From an archaeon (GTDB lineage: Archaea > Nanobdellota > Nanobdellia > Woesearchaeales > UBA9642), in NCBI GenBank assembly GCA_043806035.1, contig JAZDHK010000016.1:2963-66962 (forward strand): 64,000 nucleotides of DNA, given 5' to 3'. Under the pieces are notes generated by a model that saw only the letters and a list, made by a program, of their open reading frames with translations, had not been told where the DNA came from and made no database searches. This document shows, in pieces, positions 30,122 to 58,876 of the stretch (within the stretch, counting starts at the first letter, position 1; each line of letters begins with the position of its first letter). Made by a program: the position numbers and the translations under genes.

Positions 30122-30125
30122 GTTT

Positions 30126-31932: not shown

Positions 31933-32940
31933 TTACATCAGAAACATCACGGCATACCCCACAAGGCAGCCTATGGTGAGAAAGGGCATGGCGGGATAGA
32001 ACTTGTCTTTCTTTGCAAAATAGAAAAGCAGACCGAGTGCAAGTGCTGCTCCTAACACAACGGGGGTGGTGTGCAGGAATGCGGCTGATTTTGTCATGCC
32101 TGTGCTGAAGAGTTGGGTGAGTGCAGTTCCTGCGAACAAAAGAGGGAATGCAATGTCCCCGCCGCCGAGAATGGCGTGCTTGTGCTTTCCTGGCAAGAGG
32201 GGTGTTGCATGGTGCGTGCTTGCATGTACTGCGTGCTTGCTTGCGTGTTCTTTTTGCTTGTAGGGAAAGTAGAGTCCTGCAAAAAGGTTGCTTTTCGTCT
32301 GGAATTGGGCCATTTTGACCATGTGTTTGCTCTTCCACACTGCATATGCGTCATACAGTGATACGGCGAGCAGAAGTAGGAGCGCCCATAGCACGTTGAA
32401 AAGGGGAACAAAGAGCAACGCTATGCCTCCGTACATGAATATTTCTGTGAGGTTGTGGATGATGAGATTGGGTTTCCAGAGCTTCCATGCTGCAAGAGCT
32501 GCTGCAATGAGCAATGCAATGAAAGCGGGGAAGAAAACGCCCAGCGTTACGGTTATTGCAAACCACACGGCGAGGAAGAACCAGAACTTCCATATGCCTA
32601 TCTTGTTGAATTTCATGAGTAAGAGCAGTAGAATTGTCCCTATGCCAACGCCGATGACGACGAGCAGGAAGCTCTGGCTACCCTCCGTCTTTGGTCGTTC
32701 TCCCAATGCTGTGTCTCCGTATTGGACTGTTATAGTGCCGTTCACCGTCTGTACGTTCGCCTCTTTCGTTATGAGAAATAAGCCAAAAAACTGTGCGGCG
32801 AGAAATGTTGCCAATAAAGCGAAAGTAACGAGCCAAGAGTGCTTCATACAGAGATAGTGTTCGTTTGATTTATAAGCATTTGTATCTGCAGCATGCTGCG
32901 CAAGACATTCGTTCGCGTCATCGTTGCAATGACACTTCAA
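31933..32940 (-). CDS. presenilin / signal-peptide-peptidase-like intramembrane aspartyl protease (A22-type, GxGD)
   Basis: Nine predicted TM helices; YD in TM6 (LAVSLYDAYAV), hydrophilic loop, GxGD in TM7 (ILGGGDIAFP), PAL-like PAM in TM9. Confidence 0.6.
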   Translation of the reverse strand: MKCHCNDDANECLAQHAADTNAYKSNEHYLCMKHSWLVTFALLATFLAAQFFGLFLITKEANVQTVNGTITVQYGDTALGERPKTEGSQSFLLVVIGVGIGTILLLLLMKFNKIGIWKFWFFLAVWFAITVTLGVFFPAFIALLIAAALAAWKLWKPNLIIHNLTEIFMYGGIALLFVPLFNVLWALLLLLAVSLYDAYAVWKSKHMVKMAQFQTKSNLFAGLYFPYKQKEHASKHAVHASTHHATPLLPGKHKHAILGGGDIAFPLLFAGTALTQLFSTGMTKSAAFLHTTPVVLGAALALGLLFYFAKKDKFYPAMPFLTIGCLVGYAVMFLM

Positions 32941-35032: not shown

Positions 35033-35846
35033 GCTGTTGTCTTTACGGGAGAGGTATAAAAACATTTCCAAAAACATTAAATACGTCATCATCGTCTTTT
35101 GCTTCGTGCAAAAGCATACAACCTTCCTCGAAGAGTGCAAGTTGGCTCTGCAAAACGATGCCACCCTCGTTCTGTGGGTGCGCTGTGAAATAATGTATAG
35201 TGGCCGTGCCGAAAGCCATTTGGCATCCGGAGATAGGCTCATCATCATCAAGAGCGACAAGACCATTCTCGTCCATCAACCGAAAGGGAGCTCGCCCATC
35301 AATTACATGAAGGCAGGATGCGAACACACACTTGAACCCGTCGAGGGGACGGATGCATTCATCCTGCACAGTAGACAGGGGAAGGAATACTTGGATGTGT
35401 TCATCGAGCAGGTGTATGACCTTTCCACGAAAAAGCTTGAAGATCATGCGACACTACAGTTGGTGGGGAGTGAACGGGACATGAGTGACATGCTGTATCA
35501 CAATCCTGAGCTTATCGAGAAAGGATTCACGCCATTGAGTAGAGAAGAGCACACCAAGTATGGATTCATTGACGTCTTTGGCTATGACAAAAAAGGCATT
35601 CTCGTCGTGGTCGAATGCAAAAGGTATATGGGGGATTTGGCAGCAGTCACCCAATTACGCAGATATGTTGAGAAGATAAAAGCATCGAAAGGGCTTGCTA
35701 CTGTACGCGGCATCCTTGCCTGTCCCGCAATAACACCGAATGCAAAAAAGATGCTCGAGGATTGGAAGTTCAGCTACGTGCACGTTCACCCCCCTAAATA
35801 TTTGGAGAAGCACCGCAAGAGTCAGATGAAACTCGGGGAATACTGA
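35031..35846 (+). CDS. nucS: endonuclease NucS / EndoMS
   Basis: N-terminal domain ATLVLWVRCEIMYSGRAESHLASGDRLIIIKSDKTILVHQP; C-terminal RecB-like nuclease motif GFIDVFGYDKKGILVVVECKR. Confidence 0.85.
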   Translation: MLLSLRERYKNISKNIKYVIIVFCFVQKHTTFLEECKLALQNDATLVLWVRCEIMYSGRAESHLASGDRLIIIKSDKTILVHQPKGSSPINYMKAGCEHTLEPVEGTDAFILHSRQGKEYLDVFIEQVYDLSTKKLEDHATLQLVGSERDMSDMLYHNPELIEKGFTPLSREEHTKYGFIDVFGYDKKGILVVVECKRYMGDLAAVTQLRRYVEKIKASKGLATVRGILACPAITPNAKKMLEDWKFSYVHVHPPKYLEKHRKSQMKLGEY

Positions 35847-35954: not shown

Positions 35955-37370
35955 ATGATGCGTACATGTGCTAGCGTGCTGTTTAGCATATTTTTCATCA
36001 GTAGTGTAGTGTGTCTGTTGACGATTGACGTGCAGGCGAGGCCATCAAACAACAGTCCATATTTATTCGTACCCATTCATCCAGGGTGGCCGCAAACAAT
36101 AATAGGACAAGAGGATGTTTGGTTGGGGCTGGTTGCTCCTGTTTCTCAAGATTTTGATGGAGATGGGCGACAGGAGGTGTTCGTTGCCCTGCCCGGCATT
36201 CCTTCATCACAATTGTTCCTGTTCAGAGAGGATGGTTCTGTAGTGTGGCAGAGGAATGTGTCGTGCGTTATCGAACCGAGCAGCACACCTTCTGTGGGTG
36301 ATGTTGCATCGTTTGCTGGAGAGGAGATTATCTTTCCCTGCAGGAATTGGACGTCCGCTGTGCTCATCATCGGGAATGCCGGAGATGTAGTCGTGCAAGG
36401 AGTTCCGTTGAAACTGTCTGACACATCGTTTGGCGCGATTGTACTCAACGACATTGATCGCGATAGCAGGCTTGATCTCGTGTACGGAGGGGATAATGCT
36501 TCTGGCAGTTATCTCGTTGCAATGCGTGCAGATGGAAGTCTCTTATTAGGATTCCCTCTGTTTGTCGAGGGACCTTATTCAGAAGTGAACACGCCCGCAA
36601 TAGGCGATCTTCTTCAAGAAACCATAGTCGTCGTGTCCCGCCCCAACAACGCAGAGCCTGGCTCTCGGATACGTGCAGTTTCAACGAACGGCAGGATACT
36701 GTGGACGATCGACTATGCAGGATATCTTTTCGGTGATCCTGTCATTGCAGACGTCACCGGAGATGGGCTGAATGATGTTGTCGTCGCTTCGGAACAGAGT
36801 GTGCTTGTGCTGAACGGCACGGGCGATGTTGTTCGTGAAATTACATTAGGAGATTTTGCAATAAGTACACCGTTAGCAATTGCCGATCTGGATGCAGCAC
36901 CAGGTAAAGAAATCATTGTGGGACGCAATACTCAGCTATTCATCATTGCAAACCTTTCCGTGCAGCGTACGCTAGAACTGCAATCGTCCATCACGAGCGT
37001 TCCTGTCATCGGAGAAACAGATAATACTGGTCGAGAAGACATATTCGTAGTAGCGGGTAATGCAGTGTACGCAGTCACGTCTGAAGGCATGCTGCTTCGC
37101 GGATTTCCCTTGCCTCTTCCTTTCTTTTCTACAAGCGTTCCGAGCATCGCAGACCTGGATGGGAATGGTGCGCTTGAGCTTTTGCTGTCTTCTACCCGGA
37201 ATGGAGAGGAGCCATCTGCACGTATTTTCGTGTGGGACCTTCGTGGTGAACAGGCATCCTGGCCACACTATCAACAAAACATACGGCGGGCGGGGAGTAT
37301 CGATGATGCGGGAGGCAGTTCTCTGCCAAAACAAAAAATGTGCACTGCGCACGTGACTGCCGTTGACTGA
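35955..37370 (+). CDS. secreted FG-GAP / beta-propeller repeat protein
   Basis: Signal peptide; repeated Ca-binding-like D-x-D/N-x-D-G motifs (DFDGDGRQEVF, DIDRDSRLDLVYGG, DVTGDGLNDVVVAS, DLDGNGALELL) with FG-GAP spacing. Confidence 0.6.
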   Translation: MMRTCASVLFSIFFISSVVCLLTIDVQARPSNNSPYLFVPIHPGWPQTIIGQEDVWLGLVAPVSQDFDGDGRQEVFVALPGIPSSQLFLFREDGSVVWQRNVSCVIEPSSTPSVGDVASFAGEEIIFPCRNWTSAVLIIGNAGDVVVQGVPLKLSDTSFGAIVLNDIDRDSRLDLVYGGDNASGSYLVAMRADGSLLLGFPLFVEGPYSEVNTPAIGDLLQETIVVVSRPNNAEPGSRIRAVSTNGRILWTIDYAGYLFGDPVIADVTGDGLNDVVVASEQSVLVLNGTGDVVREITLGDFAISTPLAIADLDAAPGKEIIVGRNTQLFIIANLSVQRTLELQSSITSVPVIGETDNTGREDIFVVAGNAVYAVTSEGMLLRGFPLPLPFFSTSVPSIADLDGNGALELLLSSTRNGEEPSARIFVWDLRGEQASWPHYQQNIRRAGSIDDAGGSSLPKQKMCTAHVTAVD

Positions 37371-37669: not shown

Positions 37670-38974
37670 TTAGAAGTTTGTTTCTTTGATTGCCGTGGGT
37701 GCTGAGCCGCCATGCCACGTGAACCTTGGGCGTATGGCGATGGGGAAGAGTTTCTCATTGTTGTCGTCGAAGATGAGCGCTGCTCCGCTTATTCTGGGTA
37801 GGTCGTCGAGCTGCTGGACGAGGCCTTCGCGCATGTAGCTCTGCATCAACGCACCCAATGACTCCGTGTCTATCTTTGCCGTGATCCTGTGCGCAATAAC
37901 CGTGTCCGCTTGCGTCATGACGTCCGTGTGGATTTTTCCCGGCTGCTGCGTTGCCAGAATTAATGAAATGCCCGGCTGCCTGCCTTCTCGGAGGATGGTG
38001 ATGAGCGGCTCTGTGGCGAGCGTCTTGCCCTGGTTGGGTAGGAATTCGTGTGCCTCGTCGATGATCAACCACACCATGGGGAAGCTTTCCTGCTTCTCCT
38101 CCTCGCCAAAATAATTCACGGTTTTGTGTATTGCCTCGTATTCTTCGTCTTTCCTTGCGAGCATGCGCTGCACGAACAGTTTTTCTGCAACGAGTCCGAC
38201 GATAAGGTTTTTGATGTTCCACGAATTTTCAACGGTCGCATAGCAGGATAGATCGAGGACGGTTATTTGGCCTCCGCGGACGAGATCAGTCAGCGGTGTT
38301 CCTTTGTTGCTGAAGATGCCCCAGCGTGCTGCGGCCTGGAAGAGGTTGAGTGCTGACTGCTTGACGTGCTGTTCTTCTTTGTCATCAGCGGAGATGTTCT
38401 TGATGATGTCCTGCATCGTATAGGGATTGCCTGCGTCTTGCATGTCCTGAATGATTCGTTCGACAAAAACACCCACTGGTTCTGTTGTGCTCAGGCTGAA
38501 TGTACTGCACCAATCACTGCCCTCCAGCTCTGACGGTTGCAGGCTGAACGGGTAATCAGTGGGAATTCCTTTTTTCATGTACTCATCGTAATAGCCGCCT
38601 GGTGTGTAAATCTTGATGTCCAATCCTTTCGCATCGAGCCCCCATTCCTTGAGGAGTTGCTTGTCCTTCTGGTTGGGATATTTCATGGTCCAGTACACTC
38701 CCATGGTGTCGAGCAGGATGACAGATATGTTTTTCTTAATCTCAATAGGGACGTCAGCAACGCCTTCTGCAATGACGCCCATGGTGTAGCTCTTTCCAGA
38801 ACCTCGCTTGCCTACGACGAAGACGACATGGCTTCGTACCATGTCTAGGTAGACGTTGCTCGACAAAGAGGTAGTCATGCCCATCTTGACATAATGCCTG
38901 CCTAAGAACACAGCTCCTTTGAGACCGTATGCCTTCTTGTCTGCTTCTGTTCGGCCGATGACGATGTCGTACAT
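37670..38974 (-). CDS. HerA/FtsK-like P-loop ATPase (DUF87 family); start taken at MYDIVIGRT
   Basis: Walker A VVGKRGSGKSYT; Walker B WLIIDEAHEF; overall DUF87/HerA-like order of motifs. Confidence 0.55.
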   Translation of the reverse strand: MYDIVIGRTEADKKAYGLKGAVFLGRHYVKMGMTTSLSSNVYLDMVRSHVVFVVGKRGSGKSYTMGVIAEGVADVPIEIKKNISVILLDTMGVYWTMKYPNQKDKQLLKEWGLDAKGLDIKIYTPGGYYDEYMKKGIPTDYPFSLQPSELEGSDWCSTFSLSTTEPVGVFVERIIQDMQDAGNPYTMQDIIKNISADDKEEQHVKQSALNLFQAAARWGIFSNKGTPLTDLVRGGQITVLDLSCYATVENSWNIKNLIVGLVAEKLFVQRMLARKDEEYEAIHKTVNYFGEEEKQESFPMVWLIIDEAHEFLPNQGKTLATEPLITILREGRQPGISLILATQQPGKIHTDVMTQADTVIAHRITAKIDTESLGALMQSYMREGLVQQLDDLPRISGAALIFDDNNEKLFPIAIRPRFTWHGGSAPTAIKETNF

Positions 38975-39090: not shown

Positions 39091-40446
39091 ATGGATTCTA
39101 CGTCCAAGAAAGATATAGACCACATCAACAAGCTTGCAAAGGCACAGAAAAGACCAAGTAAGGCTGTTCACAAAACACATCGGCGAAAAGTCGAGAAGAA
39201 AGAGCCAAAAAAGAAATCGCTCACGTGGCTGTGGATTGTACTTGGGGTTGTTGTCGTTGCCGTGGTCATCGCATTTATCTATTCGCAAGTACAGCAGCCT
39301 CCTGCTCCTTCGCAGAACACTGCTAAAATCGCTGCTATCGTGAATGGTGAGAAGATCATGCTAGATGATCTCCAAGACCAGTACGACCGACTGCCCGCTC
39401 AAATCAAGAGTCTGTACACGCTGTCAAGTTTCCTCAACCAGACCATAGAAGAAAAACTCCTCCTCCAGGAAGCAGCACGGCAGGACATCATAACGACTGA
39501 CGATCAGGTGCGGGAAGCACTTGATTCGTTCATCACGGAACGAGGGCTCACGCAAGCTGACCTTGAGGGATTGCTCGCACAACAAGGAGTAACGATGCAG
39601 TACTTCACGGATCTCATCAAGAAGCAACTCACTCTCACGGCGTTGTTCAACAAGACCATCTTCAACGAAATAACGGTGTCTGATGAAGATGTGCAAGCGT
39701 ATTATGATCGCAACAGCGCAGCGTTCGAAGCGCCGGAGCAAGTGACGGTGAAGCACATTCTTGTCAGCAATGCAACACAGGAAGAACCAGCTGCGCTTGT
39801 TGAGGAGCTCAAGGCAAACATCAGTGATGGCGCTGATTTCTGCACGCTTGTCACAGAATATACGGAAGATCCTGGAAGCAAGGACAAGTGTGGAGAGTAC
39901 ACCTTCCCTCGTGGCGTGATGGTTCCCGAATTCGAGGATGCAGCATTCTCGCTCGATGATGGCGACATGGCTATTGTGCAGACCCAGTTCGGCTACCATC
40001 TCATCTTGAAAGTGGAGACTATTGCAGCAAACCCTCGCCCCTTCTCTGAGGTCTCCGATGAAATAAAGAACCAGCTTACTCAAGAAAAAAGCCAACAGGC
40101 GTACATAGCGTACCTGGATGAGCTCAAAGCAAAGGCGAACATCCTCATCCTGCTGGATGAGGAGATAGTCAGCCCTGCAAAGCTTGCTGCGTGCCTTACT
40201 GCGCAAGGTGCAAAAATGTACGGTGCATACTGGTGCGGCCATTGTGCAAACCAGAAGGAACTCTTCGGAGATGCTGCACAAGATATGCCTTATGTGGAAT
40301 GCGCAATTGCAGAAAATCCCCAAGAACAGACGGATGCGTGCAAGGAAGCGGGCATCAGCGGCTATCCGACATGGATAATCAATGGGCAGAAGTATGAGGG
40401 CGAGCAATCGCTTGAGAGCCTCAAGAGCATCTCTGGTTGTGCGTAG
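39091..40446 (+). CDS. membrane-anchored SurA-like chaperone / parvulin PPIase fused to a C-terminal thioredoxin-like CxxC domain
   Basis: Basic N-terminus plus TM; PpiC domain (VKHILVSN...FGYHLILKV); C-terminal AKMYGAYWCGHCANQKELFG...GISGYPTWIINGQ resembles the Trx-like partner domain of VKOR proteins. Confidence 0.65.
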   Translation: MDSTSKKDIDHINKLAKAQKRPSKAVHKTHRRKVEKKEPKKKSLTWLWIVLGVVVVAVVIAFIYSQVQQPPAPSQNTAKIAAIVNGEKIMLDDLQDQYDRLPAQIKSLYTLSSFLNQTIEEKLLLQEAARQDIITTDDQVREALDSFITERGLTQADLEGLLAQQGVTMQYFTDLIKKQLTLTALFNKTIFNEITVSDEDVQAYYDRNSAAFEAPEQVTVKHILVSNATQEEPAALVEELKANISDGADFCTLVTEYTEDPGSKDKCGEYTFPRGVMVPEFEDAAFSLDDGDMAIVQTQFGYHLILKVETIAANPRPFSEVSDEIKNQLTQEKSQQAYIAYLDELKAKANILILLDEEIVSPAKLAACLTAQGAKMYGAYWCGHCANQKELFGDAAQDMPYVECAIAENPQEQTDACKEAGISGYPTWIINGQKYEGEQSLESLKSISGCA

Positions 40447-50023: not shown

Positions 50024-50974
50024 ATGCACGACATCTGGACGGAAAAGTACAGGCCGAAGACGTTTGCTGAGGTGAAGGGCCAGCAGGAAGTCATCAAGAG
50101 AGTAGAGGCGTTGGTCAAGCAAAAAAACTTACCTCATCTCATGTTTGCAGGCCCTGCTGGCGTTGGCAAGACAACTCTCGCACTCGTCGTGGCACATCAG
50201 CTGTACGGCAAAGACTGGAAAGAGCACGTTCTTGAACTCAACGCCTCTGACGAGCGAGGCATCGACGTCATCCGTGTTAAAGTGAAAGAGTTCGCAAGGA
50301 CAAAAGCTATAGAGGCAGTCCCCTTCAAGATCATTTATCTCGACGAATGCGATGCACTGACGAAAGAGGCCCAGCAAGCGCTGAGAAGGACCATGGAGAA
50401 CTACACGCAGACGTGCAGGTTCATCCTCTCCTGCAATTACTCAAGCAAGATTATCGATCCGATCCAAAGCAGGTGCATGCTCTTCAAGTTCAAGCCATTG
50501 AGTCAAGAGGACATTGAAAACGTTATAGACAACATCGCCAAGCAGGAGAAGCTGCATATGAGCAAGGAAACAAAAGCTGCCTTGTACGAAGTGACCCGAG
50601 GTGATTGCAGGCGTGCAGAGAACGTCCTGCAAGGGGCAGCAGCCCTCTCGACGACCATAACGGAAAAGGAAATATACGAAGTGGCTAGTGTCGCAAAGCC
50701 CAAGGAGATCATTGATGTGCTGGAGCTTGCAGCAAAAGGCAGATTCTTGGATGCGAAGCAGCGGCTGCTCGATACCATGCTCAAACACGGCCTTGGCGGG
50801 CTTGATGTCATCAAGCAAATGCAGCAGAGCGCCTGGCAGCTCTCCTTGTCAGATCATGCGAAGCTCGAGCTGGTCATGCTCTGTGGAGAGATAGAATTCA
50901 GGATGGTTGAGGGCAGCGATGACTTCATCCAGCTAGAAACACTGCTTGCAAAAACGGCACTTCTCAAAAAATAA
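50024..50974 (+). CDS. rfcS: replication factor C small subunit (no intein)
   Basis: WTEKYRP box, Walker A GPAGVGKTT, DEAD-like YLDECDAL, SRC motif (QSRC). Confidence 0.95.
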   Translation: MHDIWTEKYRPKTFAEVKGQQEVIKRVEALVKQKNLPHLMFAGPAGVGKTTLALVVAHQLYGKDWKEHVLELNASDERGIDVIRVKVKEFARTKAIEAVPFKIIYLDECDALTKEAQQALRRTMENYTQTCRFILSCNYSSKIIDPIQSRCMLFKFKPLSQEDIENVIDNIAKQEKLHMSKETKAALYEVTRGDCRRAENVLQGAAALSTTITEKEIYEVASVAKPKEIIDVLELAAKGRFLDAKQRLLDTMLKHGLGGLDVIKQMQQSAWQLSLSDHAKLELVMLCGEIEFRMVEGSDDFIQLETLLAKTALLKK

Positions 50975-51000
50975 AAAAAGAAAAAAATATCACGTAACTA
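50975..51000 (-). terminator. T-rich tract on the minus strand immediately downstream of the lipoprotein cluster
   Basis: Minus strand reads TTTTTTTCTTTTTTTATTTTTT directly after the stop of 51001..51963. Confidence 0.3.
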
Positions 51001-51963
51001 TCACTCATTCTCTCCGCTTGACTTCACAAGGATTTTCGTGATGATCGATTCCTGGAAGTCATAGTCAATCCAGATATTGACGAGTTTCGTCTTATCCTGA
51101 CGCTCTGATTCGGGGATTTGCTGCACGCAGCTCACTGTCCTTGAGCCACTGACCAGTTTCACGACACCAGAAGCCACACCATCAGAGTCTGTGGTGAATC
51201 CTTGGCAGGAGAAGTCTCCTTCGATGCCCGTCTTGACACGCACCATAACTTTATCCTCTGCGGCTCTCGCCTGCGCGTTCGTGAAGCCGTATGCGCATTC
51301 GGTGCCGTTCTCGAAGACCTTGCCTGCTCCTCTGCTGACTTCGAACGTGAACCTAATCTTATCAGATCCTTGCGTGTATTCTTGGAAGTTAGCTATAGCG
51401 ACCGGTGCTCCGGAATATTCGAACTTTTTCGGACCCGAGACGATGCAGACCTTGGTGTTCTTGCTGTCGAGGAGGTTTTTCTTGATGCACAATTCTCCGA
51501 TTGCTCTTGTCTGGTAGACGTAACACGCATCTATGACGATGGGAAATTCGTGATTACCAGGAAGATCCTCGACGTGGTTAAGCGCGAAGTATTCTGAAAC
51601 GGGGGCGAAGCTCTCTATCTTTCCCGTGTCAGGATTCAGACGGACAGCGAGAAGATCATCATCTGCTGTGCTTCTGAAGTCATCGCTGTTGTTGACACCG
51701 AATTCTCTGGCATCAAGTCCTTTAAGTTCGATATGCATGTCATCCATGTCAACAGTAGTCTCTCCTTTGTTTTCCATGCGGATGCCGACTTCGAACGGGA
51801 AGTCCCCGCCAGCCGTGACATAATCGGGAGGTGCGTCTGGCTCGAAGCTGATGACTACTCCGGCATTTCCACCCGCATAGAATCGGGTGTTTGATGGTTG
51901 CTGCGAACCACAGGCAGTGACGAGGAATGCAAGCACAAGCAAGGGTATAAAGAGTTTATTCAT
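51001..51963 (-). CDS. lipobox lipoprotein, paralog 1 (signal MNKLFIPLLVLAFLVTAC)
   Basis: Lipobox LVTAC|GS; body shares the ...F(E/K)PDAPPD..FPFEVGIRMENKGET pattern with the two upstream lipoproteins. Confidence 0.5.
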   Translation of the reverse strand: MNKLFIPLLVLAFLVTACGSQQPSNTRFYAGGNAGVVISFEPDAPPDYVTAGGDFPFEVGIRMENKGETTVDMDDMHIELKGLDAREFGVNNSDDFRSTADDDLLAVRLNPDTGKIESFAPVSEYFALNHVEDLPGNHEFPIVIDACYVYQTRAIGELCIKKNLLDSKNTKVCIVSGPKKFEYSGAPVAIANFQEYTQGSDKIRFTFEVSRGAGKVFENGTECAYGFTNAQARAAEDKVMVRVKTGIEGDFSCQGFTTDSDGVASGVVKLVSGSRTVSCVQQIPESERQDKTKLVNIWIDYDFQESIITKILVKSSGENE

Positions 51964-52021
51964 GAATTCTACCTCCTTCTGTGTCTTTCTGTGACGAATG
52001 GTTTTTTATAGTTTGTCCTTT

Positions 52022-53317
52022 TTAGCCTGCCCGCTTCACGTACACGTGCCTTTCTATCGTTTCCGAATAGCCATACCAGAGCTCGATGATGAGCGGTGTG
52101 GTGTAGGCACTGCGCATGGTCGCGTATTGTAGGTCGTATGTGCAGACGATGGTGCCTGTCTTTGTTTTTGGATCGAGCCTGATGAAGTCTTCATTGCAGG
52201 TGAGCCTGCTGCCTCGAGATGGCGCATTGTCCCTGCTGCCCGCTATGCGTATATCTCCCAGATAGATGACGTTCAGATGCTTGCTGCGTAAGTCTCCTGG
52301 ATAGTAGGGAGAGCACCTTTCCAGATAACCTGGGTCTATAACATCTCCTCTGCCTATGTTCTTGACGGTTATGGTGAAGACGACACTCTGTGGGGTGGGT
52401 TCTGCATCGATGTGCGTTATTGCCACGGGTGCTCCTTGGCTGCCTTTGAGATTCACTTGGTTTGCCCTGCATACCTTCCTGTCCTCGGAGAAGGGTGCTG
52501 GGTCTATGCATATGTCTGGGCTGGCGTACGTTGCGTACGCGTAGCAGTTCGTCACGAGGAATGTTTGTTGGGTGTGGTCGAGATTGGATGGCCAGTTGTA
52601 AATGCGCCCGTTGAACGTGATGTAGTCCTGCTGACCTCCAGGATAGTATTGCGTGTTCCCCGCAAGTAAGTATTCTTGGCCGTTGTACCTGCTGAGGTTC
52701 ATGCCTGCGAGCGCGAAAAGCAGACCTCTACCGTAGTTGAGTATGTCGACGTTGATGCCTGCCCAGTTCAGATGCACCGCTCCGTTGTTACCATTTTGGT
52801 CATACTCTATCTGAAAGTCGTTAAGCCAGGTCCAATCATCGTTGCTTCTCGTTATCTTGTTGAGAAAATCACCAATTCTGTTGAGTTGTATGCCCCAGTG
52901 CGTGTTGTCCTGATATTCGGCATGAACGCCGTTGCAGACGAAGGATATGAAGAAGCTCGTCCAGTCGCTCATTTGGTTGAAGTCAAAACCACAGTCCGAC
53001 ATGCCCGTGGGATCGACGCTGAATTCCTGGAAGCGCATCATGCCCGGGTCAAAACCGCTCACGAAGACTGCCCCTCTCGTATAGCTTGCTCCTTTATCGT
53101 GTAGAATCATGCTCACGGTGAAATCGTTGGGAGCATCCCGTGCCTGTGTCGGCGTAAAATAGTACAGCCTAACGGGGGGACTGCCCGAGTCGGCAAATTC
53201 CATTCTTACTCCTTCTGTTCCTGTAAAGTATTGCTTGTCAGGATTTTGCTTGTTGCTGTAGCTGCCACATCCTGTTAGAAAGAGCAAAAACACCAATGCC
53301 AGAATAACTCGCCTCAT
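52022..53317 (-). CDS. lipobox lipoprotein, paralog 2 (signal MRRVILALVFLLFLTGC)
   Basis: Lipobox LTGC|GS; beta-rich with W/Y/N-rich repeats. Confidence 0.5.
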   Translation of the reverse strand: MRRVILALVFLLFLTGCGSYSNKQNPDKQYFTGTEGVRMEFADSGSPPVRLYYFTPTQARDAPNDFTVSMILHDKGASYTRGAVFVSGFDPGMMRFQEFSVDPTGMSDCGFDFNQMSDWTSFFISFVCNGVHAEYQDNTHWGIQLNRIGDFLNKITRSNDDWTWLNDFQIEYDQNGNNGAVHLNWAGINVDILNYGRGLLFALAGMNLSRYNGQEYLLAGNTQYYPGGQQDYITFNGRIYNWPSNLDHTQQTFLVTNCYAYATYASPDICIDPAPFSEDRKVCRANQVNLKGSQGAPVAITHIDAEPTPQSVVFTITVKNIGRGDVIDPGYLERCSPYYPGDLRSKHLNVIYLGDIRIAGSRDNAPSRGSRLTCNEDFIRLDPKTKTGTIVCTYDLQYATMRSAYTTPLIIELWYGYSETIERHVYVKRAG

Positions 53318-53349
53318 ACCTCTTTCTCCATCTTCAGGGTTTATAAATT

Positions 53350-54921
53350 TTATCCGACGTTCAGGCGTATCTCCTTCGAGAGGAGTGCTTCATTGCCGTT
53401 TTGGACATACGCATTGAAGTGCAGTCTGTACTGCATGTTGTGTTCTGTCTGCAACGTTAGTTTGTGCTGGAGCGCTTGCTGCTCCCCTCCCTGCTCTGAA
53501 TTGCAAGGATAGTTGTCTTGACTCAATTGTGTACCGTTACGCGTGGTTAAATCTATAGCACAGGTAGTGATGCCCGGCCCCCCCGCGTATCCCCAAAATT
53601 CGTATTCGGTATTTGCTGCAAGAGTCATGGGACTCCTGACGTCCTGCTGCTGCACACCGCCTATTTGTTTCATTTTCAGGACGAGGAATCCTCTATCTGA
53701 CGATTCGCAGCAATATTTGTTGCCTGGGCAGTAATAGCCCGTAACACACTTGCCTTGGCTCCTGAGTGCATTGCATTCCTGCTCGGTGCAGGAGCAGGAA
53801 AAGGTTGGTGTTAACCATGCATTCTGGCAGAGTGCAGCATCAGGATTATCGACGCAATAGTAGCATTTGCTGATGCACTCGTTTGCCCTGCAGACCATGA
53901 TGCTGTTGAAGCACAATTCTCCATCAGGCCTGTTCAGGCATTCGTTCGGAGGATTGATGATCGTGTCTCCCTCTATTGTGCTTCGTTCGATGCGCACTTT
54001 CGCCTGTGCACCTGACTGATAGACGTACGTGAGCGTAATGAAGAGGTTGCTTTCGTAATTGTCGCTCACACCGAGAACGACGTCGTCGTCTCTTGCCGTG
54101 CATCGTGTGAATCCCTTGTCATCGATGAGTTTAATGTTTTGTGGGCTGCACTGTAATTCTCTGCTGCCCAATGCTGCACTGACGCGAACCACGTCTATTT
54201 CGGATCTGTTGAGTCCTTGGAGGAAGCATGCGCTATCGAAATCTTCAGGATCTCCCGGATTGAGCACGGTGCCGCCTCCGACGTTAGAAACATCTATCTT
54301 GAATTGTGGTTTGTAATAGTCGCCTCCTTGTACGGGATAAATTTCTGGGCTGATCATGGTTACGGCGATGGGTGCTCCTTGTGATGAGAGCGAGAGCTGT
54401 TTTGCCGTGCATACTTGCTTCCGATAATTCTCGGAATACTTGCTCGTGTCTACGCACACGGTCTGGGAAACGCTTGTTTGGTAGGGAAAGCAGAGTACGG
54501 CAGAGATCGTTGTTTCCGGATGCTCACGCTGGCCTTTGATGCTCTTGAAGTGCAAGATGCCTTGCATGATTGTGCTGTCACCATTGGGATAGTAGAGCGA
54601 CTTGCCATACAACAATCCTATCCCTCGGGGAAAGGGAGGTATGCCGTTGTCCTCGCTTACTTCGAGATAATAGGGATCGTAGCTCAGGCTGAGCTTTGCA
54701 CGTGTATCATTGGCCATGTTGAACGTGCCTTTGTTCTCAACGAGCAGTGCGAAAGGGACGTAGCTGCTTTCCAGCACATCTTGGGGAGGCTGCTCTTTCA
54801 AGAAGGAAACGACCAATCCGTCCTTGCCTGTGATGATGTTTCTATCCACATCGGTAAGTCTGCAGGCGCTGAGCATGAGTAACAGACAGGATAAAACGGC
54901 AAGGAGGGGAAGTGCACGCAT
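53350..54921 (-). CDS. lipobox lipoprotein, paralog 3, with a Cys-rich module (start at MRALPLLAVLSCLLLMLSAC)
   Basis: Lipobox LSAC|RL; N-terminal domain related to paralogs 1-2; central region with more than 20 Cys in CxxC/CxC spacing. Confidence 0.5.
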   Translation of the reverse strand: MRALPLLAVLSCLLLMLSACRLTDVDRNIITGKDGLVVSFLKEQPPQDVLESSYVPFALLVENKGTFNMANDTRAKLSLSYDPYYLEVSEDNGIPPFPRGIGLLYGKSLYYPNGDSTIMQGILHFKSIKGQREHPETTISAVLCFPYQTSVSQTVCVDTSKYSENYRKQVCTAKQLSLSSQGAPIAVTMISPEIYPVQGGDYYKPQFKIDVSNVGGGTVLNPGDPEDFDSACFLQGLNRSEIDVVRVSAALGSRELQCSPQNIKLIDDKGFTRCTARDDDVVLGVSDNYESNLFITLTYVYQSGAQAKVRIERSTIEGDTIINPPNECLNRPDGELCFNSIMVCRANECISKCYYCVDNPDAALCQNAWLTPTFSCSCTEQECNALRSQGKCVTGYYCPGNKYCCESSDRGFLVLKMKQIGGVQQQDVRSPMTLAANTEYEFWGYAGGPGITTCAIDLTTRNGTQLSQDNYPCNSEQGGEQQALQHKLTLQTEHNMQYRLHFNAYVQNGNEALLSKEIRLNVG

Positions 54922-54981
54922 GTCGTTCTTGTGTTGCAGAGGGGTTATAAATGTTTTGGCTGCAATCATGCTTCACTGTGC

Positions 54982-57102
54982 TCAGTATACTCTGACGCTG
55001 ATGTACTTGCTCATCGTGTACACGTATGATGATTCTACGAGGATGGTGTTGATGGCAAAGGGTGTATTTTGTGGCAGCAAGGGATAGTCAAGCGCGTTCT
55101 CCTGCTGGAGCCTACACGTGACGCTTCTGAATTCTTGCATGCCTAGTCCTTCCATTCCTCTCGTGAATTGGTAGCTGTTGAATTCTACAAAGTCGGGATT
55201 GCCATCCTGGTAGCTTTGTGGAGTTGCAGGTCCGAGGTCGCAGCTGCGGAGGATGAGCGGGCGTGGCATGCGGATGATGAATTGCTCTACCCTGCTAAGA
55301 TTTCCTTGCTGCCAATTGTTATCAAGAGTGACACCGAAGATGCCAAGGTTGCCATCATCACCAACTCCGATGGGAAGTTCTCTGCTGATGATGCCAATTT
55401 TTACAGGGCCGTTCGTGAATATGGCCTGGCTTTGTTTGGGAATCTGATATTTTTTATTAACGTCCATGCCTTGGCTCTGGAGGCTGCGCAGGGCCGTTTT
55501 GTCCATAAAATACAATTCGGTATCCGCCCACGTCTCAAACGCGAAGGTTGCTGCGAAGGTGATGGTGTAGCTGCCCGCTTCGAGATGGTCGAACGAACAC
55601 ATGACCGTTTCCTCACCAAACTTTTCGAGCGAAATATCGTCAGGAGGGTCAAGGCGTCCTTCAATTTCTATCTTGCCTTTGCGAGCATAACAGAGTGGAC
55701 GCACGGTGATGTCTTTGTTGAAGCTTTTTCCTTTGATGGTCGCCCAAACGATGACGGGGCTGTCCGCATAGAATTTCGTCGCCGCAGGCCTAAGATTGTC
55801 AATGTACACGCCAAGCTGCTCATTCTCGTTGTCTTCTACTTTGCCGCCATACAATTCCTGGATCATCCGCGACTTGGTCTTGTTATACTCTTGCTTGAGC
55901 GTCTCGGGACTGTGCAAGACGGCAGTCCACACTTTCGTCCATGCCTCTTTTACCATATCTAAGAATACGTTGAGGTCTTGTATGGGGTTGAAGCTCGTGC
56001 TGCCCTGCCCTAAGTTGACATTGAAGCTGAGGTTTGCGATGATGAGCAGGATGACGGCAAGAATGAGCAGGTTGAAGTAGCGTCTCGTCCATTTTTCGAT
56101 GGATGCATTCACTGAGTTCATGCCCAGATAGAATACCCAGATGGGAACGAGGAAGAGCACAACACCAATGAACCAGGGATCGATGAGACCCATGCTGATG
56201 ACGAATGATCTGATGAAGTCAGCGATTGTCGGCAGAAATGCTGCCGCAAGACTTATCCCCAAAAACACCCCTGTCTGCCGGACATCTCGCAGTCCCGTCT
56301 TGAATACCATGAAGCTTGCAATGAACCAGATAACAAGATATATGGCGAGTCGAGTCTTCCACGCTGCGGGGCTGAAGCCATAAATGTAGCCATCGATGAG
56401 GAAGTGGTAAATTGCCACGATAAGCAAAAACCATACTGGTGATTTGCTTCTGATTGCTTCTGCCGTGTTACCGATGCCTCGCTTGATGCCCCCTGCCGTG
56501 GCAAGTGCCCCTGCGCCAACGACAGCTCCTGCCATGAGTGCACCTCGACCCACTTTCCCTGCAACTTTTCCCGTCGCTTCCCTTGCCCCCTGTGTCTTGT
56601 CCCACGCCTTGCCCGCAACATCCTTCGTCTTGTCCCACGCATCGCCCGCCTTTTCTTTCGCATTGCTGGCTTTTTCTTTTGTTTTCTGCCAGGCATTTTT
56701 GAGCTTTTCTGACTTTTTCTCTGCTGCTTGTTGAATTGACTGTTGTTGGTGTTGCTGTTGCGCTACCGATTGCTGCTGAACCAAAGAACCAAGAACCATG
56801 CCTTCAGGTCCCGCCATGCTCAGTGCAGCACCTGCCATTTTTCTTTTTTGTCCTTGCGCTGCGCTTTTTCTCAGTTTCGTTTCTGTCTCTTTGCGCAATT
56901 CAGCAAGTTTTCTTTGTTCATCTGCTTCTTCTTCGCGCCAGCTCTGTGCTTCCTGCAATTCAGCAGTTCTCTCCTTGTGCTCTTCGAGAAAGGCTTCGCG
57001 TGCACTAGAATCATCAAAGTGAGTTGCTGCGGCTTGTTCTATATTTCTTGCACGTTCCATGGCAAGTTCTGCAGAAGTCTTAAGCTGGACATTTGACGGC
57101 AT
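54982..57102 (-). CDS. polytopic membrane protein with N-terminal cytoplasmic coiled coil, K-x-AG-x-AWDKT repeats and a large extracytoplasmic C-terminal domain
   Basis: Acidic/basic heptad N-terminus; repeats KAGDAWDKTKDVAGKAWDKTQGA; Gly/Ala-rich helix; at least 6 TM helices; about 350-aa C-terminal domain. Confidence 0.5.
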   Translation of the reverse strand: MPSNVQLKTSAELAMERARNIEQAAATHFDDSSAREAFLEEHKERTAELQEAQSWREEEADEQRKLAELRKETETKLRKSAAQGQKRKMAGAALSMAGPEGMVLGSLVQQQSVAQQQHQQQSIQQAAEKKSEKLKNAWQKTKEKASNAKEKAGDAWDKTKDVAGKAWDKTQGAREATGKVAGKVGRGALMAGAVVGAGALATAGGIKRGIGNTAEAIRSKSPVWFLLIVAIYHFLIDGYIYGFSPAAWKTRLAIYLVIWFIASFMVFKTGLRDVRQTGVFLGISLAAAFLPTIADFIRSFVISMGLIDPWFIGVVLFLVPIWVFYLGMNSVNASIEKWTRRYFNLLILAVILLIIANLSFNVNLGQGSTSFNPIQDLNVFLDMVKEAWTKVWTAVLHSPETLKQEYNKTKSRMIQELYGGKVEDNENEQLGVYIDNLRPAATKFYADSPVIVWATIKGKSFNKDITVRPLCYARKGKIEIEGRLDPPDDISLEKFGEETVMCSFDHLEAGSYTITFAATFAFETWADTELYFMDKTALRSLQSQGMDVNKKYQIPKQSQAIFTNGPVKIGIISRELPIGVGDDGNLGIFGVTLDNNWQQGNLSRVEQFIIRMPRPLILRSCDLGPATPQSYQDGNPDFVEFNSYQFTRGMEGLGMQEFRSVTCRLQQENALDYPLLPQNTPFAINTILVESSYVYTMSKYISVRVY

Positions 57103-57147
57103 GCTTACCTCTTTTTAGCAATTCTCGAGAAAGGACTATTTAAATGT

Positions 57148-58818
57148 TTAGGCTTTTTTCTTTAACTTAATAGTGATGCTGGCAATCTCGACGGTAGACC
57201 GAGGGATGAGCTCGATGCTGTTGCTGCCGCTGCGCACGTCAGCATCAATGAGCCTTGAGAAGGTTAGCCTGTTCGTGTCAATGCTGAAGCGGTTGCCGTT
57301 GACACTGACATCGAGTTTCTTATCATCGCTTGTCGCAAACTGCACAGTAAAGTTGACATCGTACTTGCTGCCCAAGTATTCTTCCGTGTCGTCCTGCTGT
57401 GCGGGGCAGTTCGGCCTGCCTCCGCCCTCTCGCCTGTATCCTGAAGGGCAGTCGAAGCAGCTCTGACCACTCACGCTTGCTCTGCACGTGTTAGACTGTC
57501 CGGTGAAGGGCACTTCTTTGCACCAGTAATTGTCCTCATTATCTTCGTAACAGCAGTCCTTGTCATAATAGATGGAGCAGCCGCTCGGGCAGGAATCATC
57601 CGTGTCGTCACCACAACGGTCCTCGCACGCATTGGGTGGATTTCCTGATTTTTTTTGGTAACCTGCATCGCATCTGTCACAGTCTTCCTCATAGACGTAG
57701 TCGACGCAACGATCACGTACGTTCTGTGTTGGTGTAGGGCACCAGTACGTGCTTTCTGCATAGCAGCAGTCCGGATCCCGATCTGCTTCGCAGTTTGCTG
57801 GGCAAATGCTGTCTGCCTCACCGCATTGTCCTTGGGCAGAACGGGCACCGAACAAATCTTCGTCCAATGTGAAGTAGTAGACGGGATACGTGAGGTTTTT
57901 GAGGACGGTTTTGATTTGTATTCTGTCAACGAGGAATCTGCCTTCAGTAGCAGTGAATTTTATGGTGTTGTCTCCTTGCTGCAATAATTCCTGGTCGAGT
58001 TCGATGTGGTTGAGTAAGCCGCAATCTGGAACGCCCGAATATATTTGCTTGTCGTTGATGCGTATTTGCAATTGTCCGAGTGTTGTTTGATCGCAGTCAG
58101 GGTAGAAGTACAGCAGTGCCCTGTCGAACTGTTCCTGCTCGAGTTCCGTGAGGGAAAAGTGCTGCTCTGCCTTGCTCCTGCTTCTATCCGTGATGTCAGC
58201 AACGATTTGCACGTTTTCGAGGATGAACTGGTGGCTTCTCCAGAATGCCCATCCAGTGCTGCTTGCTTCGAACGTCAACAAGTTATTGTCCCCGAGAAAT
58301 TCATCAGGAATTGCCAGAGGGGCAGGGTTGCCTTGCACGACTTCGCTGTTGTAGATGTCGTGGTTGTTGATGCGGATAATCAGCCTACCATCAGGGCTTT
58401 TTACGCCAAAAACCAACCGGACATTTGCCGTGTTCGTTAAGTCCGTGCTAAAGGTGATATTGGCCGTCGTCTTACCCAGCCAGGAGTTCTTCACGAAGAG
58501 TGCTGCAATGTTCTTTATGAGTTGCGGTTCTGTTGTGCTCGTGATAGTGAATGAGGGAATGTCGTGCTCTTGCTCAGAAAATCGCAGGTAGTTGAGCTTG
58601 CCAACCTGCTCGTCAAGCAGTGTTGTCGTTGTTGTTTTTCCGGAATCTGGCTCGAGACCAATGCCTGTTCCCGAATTGTCTTTGAGCAGATCGTTGCGTA
58701 CTTCTGGAGGGAGGAACAGCAAGTAGAGAATAACCAATGCCGTGATGATGATGACAACCACGGCAGCACTGCCTCCCGATGTTGGCGCCGCAGCCCCTCT
58801 TTTTCCTGTTCGTGTCAT
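57148..58818 (-). CDS. Cys-rich surface protein with N-terminal signal-anchor (start at MTRTGKRGAAAP...)
   Basis: TM anchor VVVIIITALVILYLLF; C-terminal half with about 30 Cys in repeated CxxxC/DxDxDC modules. Confidence 0.45.
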   Translation of the reverse strand: MTRTGKRGAAAPTSGGSAAVVVIIITALVILYLLFLPPEVRNDLLKDNSGTGIGLEPDSGKTTTTTLLDEQVGKLNYLRFSEQEHDIPSFTITSTTEPQLIKNIAALFVKNSWLGKTTANITFSTDLTNTANVRLVFGVKSPDGRLIIRINNHDIYNSEVVQGNPAPLAIPDEFLGDNNLLTFEASSTGWAFWRSHQFILENVQIVADITDRSRSKAEQHFSLTELEQEQFDRALLYFYPDCDQTTLGQLQIRINDKQIYSGVPDCGLLNHIELDQELLQQGDNTIKFTATEGRFLVDRIQIKTVLKNLTYPVYYFTLDEDLFGARSAQGQCGEADSICPANCEADRDPDCCYAESTYWCPTPTQNVRDRCVDYVYEEDCDRCDAGYQKKSGNPPNACEDRCGDDTDDSCPSGCSIYYDKDCCYEDNEDNYWCKEVPFTGQSNTCRASVSGQSCFDCPSGYRREGGGRPNCPAQQDDTEEYLGSKYDVNFTVQFATSDDKKLDVSVNGNRFSIDTNRLTFSRLIDADVRSGSNSIELIPRSTVEIASITIKLKKKA

Positions 58819-58876
58819 GCTCTTTTTATCGAGCCAACCAATAACCTTTATATATATAAATGTTGTCATTGCTTTT
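58819..58876. promoter_or_regulatory. compact divergent promoter region with alternating TA tract (TTTATATATATAAATG)
   Basis: 58-nt gap between the divergently transcribed surface-protein gene and pelota, containing a TATA-like palindrome. Confidence 0.35.

What the first reader, a model, noticed from the sequence alone, without database searches (positions are those of the whole stretch)
51001..58818. Five-gene minus-strand cluster of surface proteins: three paralogous lipobox lipoproteins, a repeat-bearing coiled-coil membrane protein and a Cys-rich anchored protein
Three consecutive genes start with signal peptides ending in a lipobox Cys (VTAC, LTGC, LSAC) and share an N-terminal domain pattern, indicating local duplication. 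The next gene encodes a protein with a cytoplasmic coiled coil, KAGDAWDKT-type repeats, 6+ TM helices and a large outside domain. The last gene encodes a signal-anchored protein with about 30 Cys in repeated modules. The cluster is bounded by rfcS and pelota and ends in a T-rich terminator. Together these look like an S-layer-associated or adhesion module of unknown function.
Basis: seen in the sequence. Interest (0 to 1): 0.6.

Follow-up and report, generated by a model that had tools for sequence, protein, structure and literature searches.

The report
Conserved Woesearchaeota surface-protein operon
This is a real five-gene operon for membrane-anchored surface proteins, kept in the same place and order in dozens of Woesearchaeota (tiny, uncultured symbiotic archaea); it belongs to no described protein family and may be how these cells hold on to, and sometimes cut, a partner's cell wall.

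Summary
Five co-directional minus-strand genes lie between rfcS and pelota, with one TATA box upstream and a T-run downstream.

- **G1-G3:** lipobox lipoproteins and true paralogues (hhalign probability 99.9-100%). The triplication is ancient: in 36 genomes the best cross-genome hit sits in the same operon position in 95/95/80% of comparisons.
- **G4:** a charged cytoplasmic N-terminus, 5 strong TM helices, a stalk helix and two beta-sandwiches outside.
- **G5:** an N-terminal anchor helix, three homologous jelly-roll modules, and an optional insert with 20 Cys.

The block rfcS-[3-5 lipoproteins]-G4-G5-pelota recurs in at least 37 of 80 related Woesearchaeota loci. Most of the other loci are cut by contig ends.

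None of the five proteins matches Pfam, NCBIfam, PHROGs or PDB sequences. The AF2 models match only generic tandem Ig-like adhesin folds.

The functional clue comes from fusions. Eight of 43 syntenic G4 orthologues carry a C-terminal peptidoglycan glycan hydrolase (5 SLT, 3 glucosaminidase). G5 modules give weak hits to carbohydrate-binding modules.

My best reading (about 0.4) is a core surface complex that binds a glycan cell wall, probably a bacterial partner's. A purely structural coat is the main rival. No experiment exists.

The parts
58847..58860 (.). Palindromic TATA box TTTATATATATAAA in the 58-nt divergent spacer between G5 (ATG at 58818, minus strand) and pelota (ATG at 58877, plus strand). 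It is the likely operon promoter.
   Evidence: Read directly from the sequence. The spacing to both ATGs fits short-leader archaeal transcripts; this is an inference.
57148..58818 (-). G5, 556 aa. It has an N-terminal basic stretch with K-R-G and an anchor helix (residues 17-36, 58711-58770). Three homologous beta jelly-roll modules follow, with a Cys-rich insert between modules 2 and 3.
   Evidence: ORF. The start was fixed by the alignment of 36 orthologues. Internal repeats: hhalign A-B 97.6%, B-C 90.9%. Six of 36 family members give sub-threshold Pfam hits, all to carbohydrate-binding jelly rolls. The family has 816 representatives at E<=1e-3 among 1.84 billion proteins.
57406..57825 (-). 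Cys-rich acidic insert of G5 (residues 332-471, 20 Cys, two units of about 70 aa). It is optional in the family.
   Evidence: Present in 7 of 36 aligned orthologues. Family lengths are bimodal, about 395 and about 560 aa. Coordinates and Cys count.
54982..57102 (-). G4, 706 aa. Charged helical cytoplasmic N-terminus with KAGDAWDKT-type repeats (residues 136-184, 56551-56697). Five strong TM helices (residues 223-360, 56023-56436). A long stalk helix and a two-beta-sandwich ectodomain follow (about residues 395-706, 54985-55920).
53350..54969 (-). G3, a lipoprotein (probable start M17 at 54921; lipobox LSAC at 54862-54873). The paralogue core (residues about 38-335) is followed by a Cys-rich linker (residues 344-424, 53698-53940, 14 Cys) and a C-terminal beta domain.
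   Evidence: No Pfam domain was found in this protein or in 10 long orthologues.
52022..53317 (-). G2, a lipoprotein (lipobox LTGC at 53267-53278). It has two beta-sandwich domains with a low-confidence insertion at about residues 100-190, and 8 conserved Cys besides the lipobox Cys.
51001..51963 (-). G1, a lipoprotein (lipobox VTAC at 51910-51921). It is the shortest paralogue and the last gene of the operon.
   Evidence: Position-1 orthology holds in 95% of cross-genome comparisons.
50966..50988 (-). Oligo-T run (TATTTTTTTCTTTTTTTATTTTTT on the minus strand) 13-35 nt after the G1 stop. It is a likely archaeal terminator and overlaps the 3' end of the convergent rfcS gene.
   Evidence: Read directly from the sequence.

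Best explanation
The five genes form one operon for a core cell-surface complex of Woesearchaeota.

**Proposed parts.**
- G4 is the membrane-embedded base. It has a TM bundle, a cytoplasmic charged tail, and an outward stalk bearing two Ig-like sandwiches.
- G1, G2 and G3 are three anciently diverged lipid-anchored proteins of the same tandem-sandwich type. Each keeps its own operon position, so they probably assemble with G4 as non-redundant subunits.
- G5 is held by an N-terminal helix and displays three carbohydrate-binding-like jelly rolls.

**Proposed job.** The complex binds a glycan cell wall outside the archaeon, most plausibly the peptidoglycan of a bacterial partner. In about one lineage in five it also cuts that wall with a hydrolase mounted at the tip of G4. 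In this genome G4 has no hydrolase, so any wall cutting would have to come from separate enzymes, such as the 3D-domain protein at 26579-28546.

**Shown:**
- gene structure, lipoboxes and paralogy
- positional orthology and lineage-wide synteny
- beta-sandwich folds
- hydrolase fusions in orthologues

**Inferred:**
- physical assembly of the five proteins
- glycan binding by G5
- a partner's wall as the target
For: **Operon.** Gaps between genes are 12-58 nt, with one TATA box upstream and one T-run downstream.

**Synteny.** The order LLL-4-5 occurs in 30 of 80 rfcS-anchored Woesearchaeota loci, and 7 more have 2, 4 or 5 lipoproteins. Most of the remainder are cut by contig ends. Pelota is adjacent to G5 in 31 of 38 loci.

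**Conservation.** G2 and G5 are 31-45% identical across these genomes, similar to pelota at 30-41%.

**Non-redundant paralogues.** The best cross-genome hit is in the same operon position in 95/95/80% of comparisons across 36 genomes.

**Surface location.** Lipoboxes are conserved. Eight conserved Cys in G2 suggest disulfides. G4 has an odd number of strong TM helices after a K/R-rich N-terminal side.

**Fold.** The G2 and G4 ectodomains are tandem beta-sandwiches. Their best matches are Ig-like modules of adhesins and scaffolds: integrin legs, CfaB, AspA, PrgB, cohesin dyads, RbmA and alpha-2-macroglobulin/C3 MG domains.

**Wall link.**
- Two unrelated peptidoglycan glycan hydrolase domains are found on G4 orthologues in the same operon slot: SLT in 5 and glucosaminidase in 3 of 43.
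- In the five cases where the position was reported, the domain lies C-terminal to the ectodomain.
- SLT also occurs in 2 of 6 database homologues.
- The E-S/E-T catalytic motif is readable in the sequences.
- Six of 36 G5 family members give sub-threshold Pfam hits, all to carbohydrate-binding jelly rolls: CBM_35, PL4 CBM-like, BetaGal_ABD2 and sialidase N-terminal domain.

**Literature.**
- Large extracellular SLT proteins of Woese- and Pacearchaeota were proposed to bind bacterial walls (PMC8204110).
- The lipoprotein lipidation enzyme AliA occurs in DPANN (PMC12462473).
Against: - There are no experimental data for any member of these families.
- This window's own G4 has no hydrolase domain, and neither do 35 of 43 orthologues.
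- The G5 hits to carbohydrate-binding modules are all below Pfam thresholds, with E about 1e-3.
- Host-contact proteins usually vary fast in sequence and gene content. This cluster instead has fixed order and content and sits among housekeeping genes, which fits a structural role equally well.
- Assembly of the five proteins is inferred only from co-transcription and co-inheritance.
- The hosts of Woesearchaeota are unknown.
Confidence: 0.4

Rival explanations
1. The operon encodes a purely structural envelope layer: an S-layer-like coat or pseudo-periplasm scaffold. The three lipoproteins, G4 and G5 would build the archaeon's own outer protein layer and anchor it to the membrane. The hydrolase or fn3 add-ons in some lineages would be secondary decorations.
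For: - The cluster is present across the lineage, inherited vertically, and has fixed order and content.
- Its conservation is comparable to that of the housekeeping neighbour pelota.
- All five products are membrane-anchored, beta-sandwich-rich and carry conserved disulfide Cys.
- Archaeal S-layer proteins are commonly arrays of Ig-like domains (my own knowledge).
- No other S-layer candidate was seen in the window.
Against: - There is no similarity to any known S-layer family or structure.
- N-glycosylation sequons are not enriched: 0.23-0.62 per 100 residues against 0.58 in the window background.
- There is no PGF-CTERM or C-terminal anchor.
- Five distinct subunits would be unusual for an S-layer.
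- This reading does not explain why two unrelated peptidoglycan hydrolases were recruited independently to G4 in an archaeon with no known murein.
Confidence: 0.27
2. The operon encodes an uptake or conduit system. The G4 TM bundle would form a channel or transporter, and the lipoproteins and G5 would capture substrates such as host-derived glycans or muropeptides. This would be analogous to substrate-binding lipoproteins feeding a permease.
For: - G4 is the only polytopic protein. It has a conserved Pro-x-Trp motif in its fourth TM helix (P320 is nearly invariant in 43 orthologues).
- Lipoproteins of archaea and Gram-positive bacteria are often solute-binding proteins (PMC12462473).
- The hydrolase fusions could release the substrate.
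Against: - G1-G3 are all-beta tandem sandwiches, not the alpha/beta fold of substrate-binding proteins.
- The cluster has no ATPase or recognisable permease family.
- The TM region is the least conserved and most size-variable part of G4, and its AF2 confidence is below 50.
Confidence: 0.1
3. G5 is a class III (prepilin-type) signal-peptide protein, and the operon is an accessory module of a type IV filament or bindosome-like system encoded elsewhere.
For: - A [KR]-[GAS]-[Q/E/A..] motif lies within 18 residues before the anchor helix in 34 of 35 orthologues. In most of them it is K/R-G/A-Q.
- Pilin-like ORFs (MKGQV..., MKRGLSF...) occur elsewhere in the window.
Against: - Only 4 of 35 orthologues match the strict FlaFind pattern, and the window's own G5 (KRGAAAP) does not.
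- The cluster contains no assembly ATPase, platform protein or prepilin peptidase in any of the loci.
- A basic stretch before a TM helix is also simply the positive-inside rule.
Confidence: 0.07

Closest known systems
Archaeal lipobox lipoproteins (Haloferax volcanii model; AliA/AliB-dependent thioether-archaeol anchoring; PMC12462473)
   Same: G1-G3 have a basic n-region, a hydrophobic h-region and a canonical [LVI][ASTVI][GAS]C lipobox that is conserved in orthologues. AliA is reported in DPANN.
   Different: The mature domains belong to no described lipoprotein family. They are all-beta tandem sandwiches rather than solute-binding proteins. They occur as three fixed paralogues in one operon. 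Lipidation has not been tested.
Large extracellular SLT (murein lytic transglycosylase) proteins of Woesearchaeota and Pacearchaeota (fam00969, 'module 98'; Castelle et al. 2021, PMC8204110)
   Same: They come from the same lineage. Some G4 orthologues carry an extracellular SLT domain. The proposed role, contact with bacterial walls, is the same.
   Different: The window's G4 has no SLT domain. I could not map G4 to fam00969. The paper, where I searched it, does not describe the five-gene operon, the lipoprotein paralogues or G5.
Tandem Ig-like surface adhesins and scaffolds (integrin alpha legs, CFA/I pilin CfaB, streptococcal AspA, enterococcal PrgB, cohesin dyads, V. cholerae RbmA)
   Same: They are the best structural matches to the G2 and G4 ectodomain models. 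Both are strings of beta-sandwiches displayed outside the cell.
Sulfolobales SlaA/SlaB S-layer (canopy plus membrane-anchored stalk); comparison from my own knowledge
   Same: Both are co-transcribed surface proteins in which one partner anchors the assembly in the membrane.
   Different: There is no sequence or fold similarity. This cluster has five components. Anchoring is by lipid and N-terminal or polytopic TM segments, not a C-terminal TM. Sequons are not enriched.
Membrane-anchored wall hydrolases of Gram-positive conjugative type IV secretion systems (VirB1-like, e.g. PrgK/TraG); comparison from my own knowledge
   Same: Both place a TM-anchored protein outside the cell with an SLT-type or other peptidoglycan hydrolase to open a wall locally.
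   Different: This cluster has no VirB4/VirD4 ATPases or other secretion genes. It is chromosomal core rather than mobile, and has no relatives in IMG/VR. The hydrolase is absent in most orthologues.

Membership tests
Lipobox (signal peptidase II-type) lipoproteins | N-terminal basic n-region, hydrophobic h-region and a [LVI][ASTVI][GAS]C lipobox within about 15-35 residues | tested here: met
   VTAC (15-18), LTGC (14-17) and LSAC (33-36, or 17-20 from M17). Pfam LPAM_1 hits G2 just below threshold at 19.1 versus 20 bits.
Lipobox (signal peptidase II-type) lipoproteins | The lipobox Cys is conserved in orthologues | tested here: met
   Conserved in 64/69, 52/55 and 43/49 orthologues from related loci and in 69/71 database homologues. 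C17 is invariant in A1.
Lipobox (signal peptidase II-type) lipoproteins | Lipidation machinery (archaeal AliA) in the genome, and an actual thioether-linked lipid | not testable with these tools
   Only 64 kb of the genome is available and no AliA model was at hand. The literature reports AliA in DPANN (PMC12462473).
Archaeal S-layer proteins | Sequence or fold similarity to a known S-layer family | tested here: not met
Archaeal S-layer proteins | Typical anchoring or modification signals: PGF-CTERM or a C-terminal TM, and dense N-glycosylation sequons | tested here: not met
   The C-termini are soluble beta-strands. Sequon density is 0.23-0.62 per 100 residues against 0.58 background.
Archaeal S-layer proteins | Forms a 2D lattice and is among the most abundant proteins | not testable with these tools
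   This needs cryo-ET or proteomics of an enrichment.
Class III signal-peptide (type IV pilin-like) proteins (G5) | A [KR][GA] cleavage motif directly before the hydrophobic helix (FlaFind pattern) | tested here: inconclusive
   The relaxed motif is found in 34 of 35 orthologues and the strict FlaFind pattern in 4 of 35. The window's G5 fails the strict pattern.
Class III signal-peptide (type IV pilin-like) proteins (G5) | Genetic linkage to an assembly ATPase, platform protein or prepilin peptidase | tested here: not met
   None is present in the cluster, either in the window or in the related loci.
Extracellular SLT-domain proteins of Woese-/Pacearchaeota | An SLT (PF01464) domain | tested here: not met
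   The window's G4 has no Pfam family. Among 43 orthologues, 5 have SLT and 3 have glucosaminidase.
Class II membrane fusogens (fusexin/HAP2) | A three-domain beta ectodomain with fusion loops, plus a C-terminal TM | tested here: not met
Substrate-binding lipoproteins of ABC transporters | An alpha/beta binding fold with adjacent permease and ATPase genes | tested here: not met
   The G2 model is all-beta. There are no transporter genes in the operon.
Carbohydrate-binding jelly-roll modules (G5 repeats) | A match to a carbohydrate-binding-module family above the curated threshold | tested here: inconclusive
   Six of 36 members hit CBM_35, PL4 CBM-like, BetaGal_ABD2 or the sialidase N-terminal domain at E of 6e-4 to 3e-3. 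For the window's G5 the score (19.1 bits) is below the 27-bit Pfam cut-off. No structure model could be made for G5.

The most novel reading that the evidence does not exclude
The operon encodes the lineage-defining host-contact machine of Woesearchaeota. This would be a previously undescribed archaeal apparatus that docks onto a bacterial peptidoglycan wall and, through hydrolase-tipped G4 variants, breaches it. G4 would be the membrane base and possible conduit, G1-G3 a heteromeric Ig-like stalk, and G5 the glycan-recognising subunit. It would be the first molecular handle on cross-domain (archaeon-on-bacterium) episymbiosis.
Probability: 0.2. Interest if true: 0.85.

Novelty: new variant of a known kind. 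Interest (0 to 1): 0.55.

Why it matters
Woesearchaeota are abundant and uncultured, and they are presumed to be symbionts. Neither their hosts nor their means of attachment are known.

This operon is present across the lineage, encodes only surface proteins, and has no annotation. In a fifth of lineages it is physically fused to peptidoglycan-cutting enzymes.

That makes it a concrete, testable candidate for the envelope or host-contact structure. It could be targeted in metaproteomics, by labelling in cryo-ET, and in binding or lysis assays.

It also adds three ancient, fixed lipoprotein paralogues to the newly opened field of archaeal lipoprotein biology.

Tried and rejected
- **Full-length G4 word-indexed search:** no hits, probably because the low-complexity N-terminus swamped the word filter. 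The C-terminal 496 aa found 6 homologues.
- **Exact G4 look-up:** not on record.
- **Family libraries:** Pfam, NCBIfam and PHROGs gave no family for any of the five proteins.
- **PDB profile searches of A1, A2 and A3:** nothing meaningful.
- **Foldseek afdb50:** not available.
- **G4 ectodomain versus lipoprotein profiles:** the alignment is collinear over about 235 columns with matching motifs (TNGPV.IG against S/QGAPVAV, and terminal Y.Y strands). It is not significant, with probability 2-15% and E of 0.002-0.03. Common origin stays open.
- **Domain fusions in long G3-type lipoproteins:** none found.
- **Viral or mobile origin:** no relatives of the lipoprotein family in IMG/VR.
- **Taxonomic range of G5 through cluster names:** only one name was returned, Woesearchaeota.
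- **Literature:** searches found no description of this operon.
- **Ideas considered and dropped:** fusexin-like fusogen, ABC-type uptake system and type IV secretion. Their defining features are absent.

Full report
**1. What is in the sequence**

Five co-directional ORFs lie on the minus strand between 51001 and 58818:

| Gene | Coordinates | Length |
|---|---|---|
| G1 | 51001-51963 | 320 aa |
| G2 | 52022-53317 | 431 aa |
| G3 | 53350-54969 | 539 aa |
| G4 | 54982-57102 | 706 aa |
| G5 | 57148-58818 | 556 aa |

- The gaps between genes are 58, 32, 12 and 45 nt.
- The mechanical G5 ORF runs on to 58959. Its first 47 residues have no counterpart in 35 orthologues.
- A palindromic TATA box (TTTATATATATAAA, 58847-58860) lies between that upstream ATG and the ATG at 58818. 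It is about 30 nt from the G5 start and about 20 nt from the divergent pelota start at 58877.
- A T-run follows the G1 stop by 13-35 nt.
- The flanking genes are RFC small subunit, 63-71% identical to Woesearchaeota homologues, and pelota, with eRF1 domains 1-3.
- The organism is a Woesearchaeota-type DPANN archaeon: all 80 related loci come from archaeal MAGs, most labelled Woesearchaeota, Nanoarchaeota/Nanoarchaeia or Nanobdellati (some carry other or generic labels).

**2. The three lipoproteins**

- G1, G2 and G3 carry canonical lipoboxes: VTAC, LTGC and LSAC.
- G3 most likely starts at M17 (54921). That gives a normal n-region.
- The lipobox is conserved in 64/69, 52/55 and 43/49 orthologues recovered from related loci, and in 69/71 database homologues of G2. 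The Cys is invariant in a 71-sequence alignment.
- Paralogy is clear. BLASTP gives E=3e-16 for G2-G3 and about 1e-3 to 1e-4 for pairs involving G1. Profile-profile probabilities are 99.9-100%.
- The triplication is old. In 36 genomes with exactly three copies, the best hit in another genome sits at the same operon position in 95%, 95% and 80% of comparisons. These are three orthologue groups with fixed order, which argues for non-redundant roles.
- G2 has eight further invariant or near-invariant Cys. This fits an extracytoplasmic, disulfide-bonded protein.
- The AF2 model of G2 (pLDDT 84, pTM 0.76) shows two beta-sandwich domains and one poorly predicted insertion.

**3. G4**

- The N-terminal 220 residues or so are charged and helical. 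They contain the KAGDAWDKT-type repeats at residues 136-184.
- Five strong hydrophobic helices follow at residues 223-360, plus one weak Gly/Ala segment.
- A basic N-terminal side and an odd number of helices put the C-terminal 340 residues outside the cell.
- The AF2 model, built on only 7 sequences, is unreliable in the membrane part. The ectodomain scores pLDDT 80-90: a long stalk helix and two beta-sandwiches.
- Profile comparison of the G4 ectodomain with the lipoproteins is collinear end to end but not significant, with probability at most 15%. I leave homology open.

**4. G5**

- After the start comes a basic stretch, then one hydrophobic helix (residues 17-36), then three mutually homologous modules (hhalign 97.6% and 90.9%).
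- A 140-residue acidic insert with 20 Cys, in two units of about 70 aa, lies between modules 2 and 3. It occurs in only 7 of 36 aligned orthologues.
- Family lengths are bimodal, about 395 and about 560 aa.
- Six of 36 family members give sub-threshold Pfam hits. All are to carbohydrate-binding jelly rolls.
- A K/R-G/A-Q motif before the helix is strikingly conserved (34 of 35 with a relaxed pattern). It meets the strict class III signal-peptide pattern in only 4 of 35.

**5. Conservation**

- tblastn and family HMMs find the same cluster, in the same order and orientation, directly after rfcS in the related loci.
- The pattern LLL-4-5 occurs in 30 loci, and variants with 2, 4 or 5 lipoproteins in 7 more. 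Most of the rest are truncated by contig ends. Four full-length loci lack the cluster at this site.
- Where BLAST missed G4, an HMM finds a divergent G4 in the same slot.
- Pelota is adjacent to G5 in 31 of 38 loci.
- G2 and G5 are about as conserved (31-45%) as pelota (30-41%).
- The G5 family has 816 representatives at E<=1e-3 among 1.84 billion cluster representatives. That marks a lineage-restricted family.
- All named homologues are 'hypothetical protein' from Woesearchaeota, Nanoarchaeota or Nanobdellota, or from MAGs labelled only 'archaeon'.
- There are no relatives in IMG/VR and no further copies in the window.

**6. The functional clue**

- None of the five proteins matches Pfam, NCBIfam, PHROGs or PDB sequences.
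- Eight of 43 syntenic G4 orthologues carry a peptidoglycan glycan-strand hydrolase: SLT in five and glucosaminidase in three.
- In the five cases where the position was reported, the domain lies C-terminal to the conserved ectodomain, so it is extracellular.
- Two of six database homologues also have SLT.
- The catalytic Glu-Ser/Thr motif is visible in the sequences.
- Two unrelated wall hydrolases recruited to the same slot point to function near a murein-type wall. Archaea of this group are not known to make such a wall.
- Castelle et al. 2021 already proposed that large SLT proteins of Woese- and Pacearchaeota bind bacterial walls (PMC8204110). The passages I retrieved from that paper do not mention this operon.
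- The window also encodes a membrane-anchored protein with a 3D domain, which is an MltA-type fold, at 26579-28546.

**7. Interpretation**

- The best-supported reading is a core surface complex. G4 would be the base, G1-G3 lipid-anchored partner subunits, and G5 a glycan-binding subunit. The complex would contact a glycan wall, probably that of a bacterial partner. I give it about 0.4.
- The main rival, at about 0.27, is a purely structural coat. The fixed content, vertical inheritance and housekeeping-like conservation favour it. The hydrolase fusions, the absence of S-layer hallmarks and the lack of sequon enrichment count against it.
- Uptake or conduit roles and type IV filament-accessory roles are less likely. 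The rivals section gives the reasons.
- A fusogen reading is not supported. Only a single Ig-like domain aligns.

**8. Novelty and verdict**

- The parts are of known kinds: lipobox lipoproteins, Ig-like surface domains, jelly rolls and polytopic anchors.
- The families are undescribed. I did not find the operon architecture, its lineage-wide conservation or its link to wall hydrolases in the literature I could search.
- I rate it a new variant of a known kind, with moderate interest of 0.55.

Noticed in passing
window 26579-28546 (-): A 655-aa protein with an N-terminal TM anchor and a Pfam 3D domain (PF06725, E=3.9e-8). This is the MltA-type peptidoglycan lytic transglycosylase fold, so the same archaeal genome has a second candidate wall-cutting enzyme.
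   Followed up: partly
window 29603-31507 (-), 31933-32847 (-) and 1543-3687 (+): Three small ORFs have pilin-like N-termini (MKRGLSF..., MKGQVKYY...). They sit next to a presenilin-type signal-peptide peptidase (PF06550). A 714-aa ORF starting MKGQVTIFVV matches the strict class III signal-peptide pattern. This may be a type IV filament-related cluster.
   Followed up: no
window 39091-40446 (+): A membrane-anchored fusion of a SurA-like N-domain, a parvulin PPIase and a thioredoxin or DsbA-like domain. It could be an extracytoplasmic folding and disulfide catalyst for the Cys-rich surface proteins.
   Followed up: no
window 37670-38974 (-): A HerA/DUF87-type ATPase with a Zot-like segment. 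Its function in this context is unknown.
   Followed up: no
window 35955-37370 (+) and 32918-35266 (-): Two further surface-type proteins: one with a hydrophobic N-terminus and FG-GAP repeats, and a 782-aa protein with a sub-threshold CarboxypepD_reg-like domain hit. The window is rich in envelope genes.
   Followed up: no
window 58847-58860: A perfectly palindromic TATA element is shared by the divergent G5 and pelota starts, which are only 58 nt apart.
   Followed up: partly
L025, L030, L059, L062, L069, L078, L079, L080 (G4 orthologues of 980-1224 aa): In some relatives G4 is greatly extended. The extensions include extra TM helices, Cys-rich linkers, fn3 or Ig-like repeats and wall hydrolase domains. 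G4 is therefore the variable, module-accreting member of an otherwise fixed operon.
   Followed up: partly
L028, L048, L052, L066: These four full-length (about 20.9 kb) rfcS loci have no cluster next to rfcS. I did not determine whether these genomes lack the operon or carry it elsewhere.
   Followed up: no
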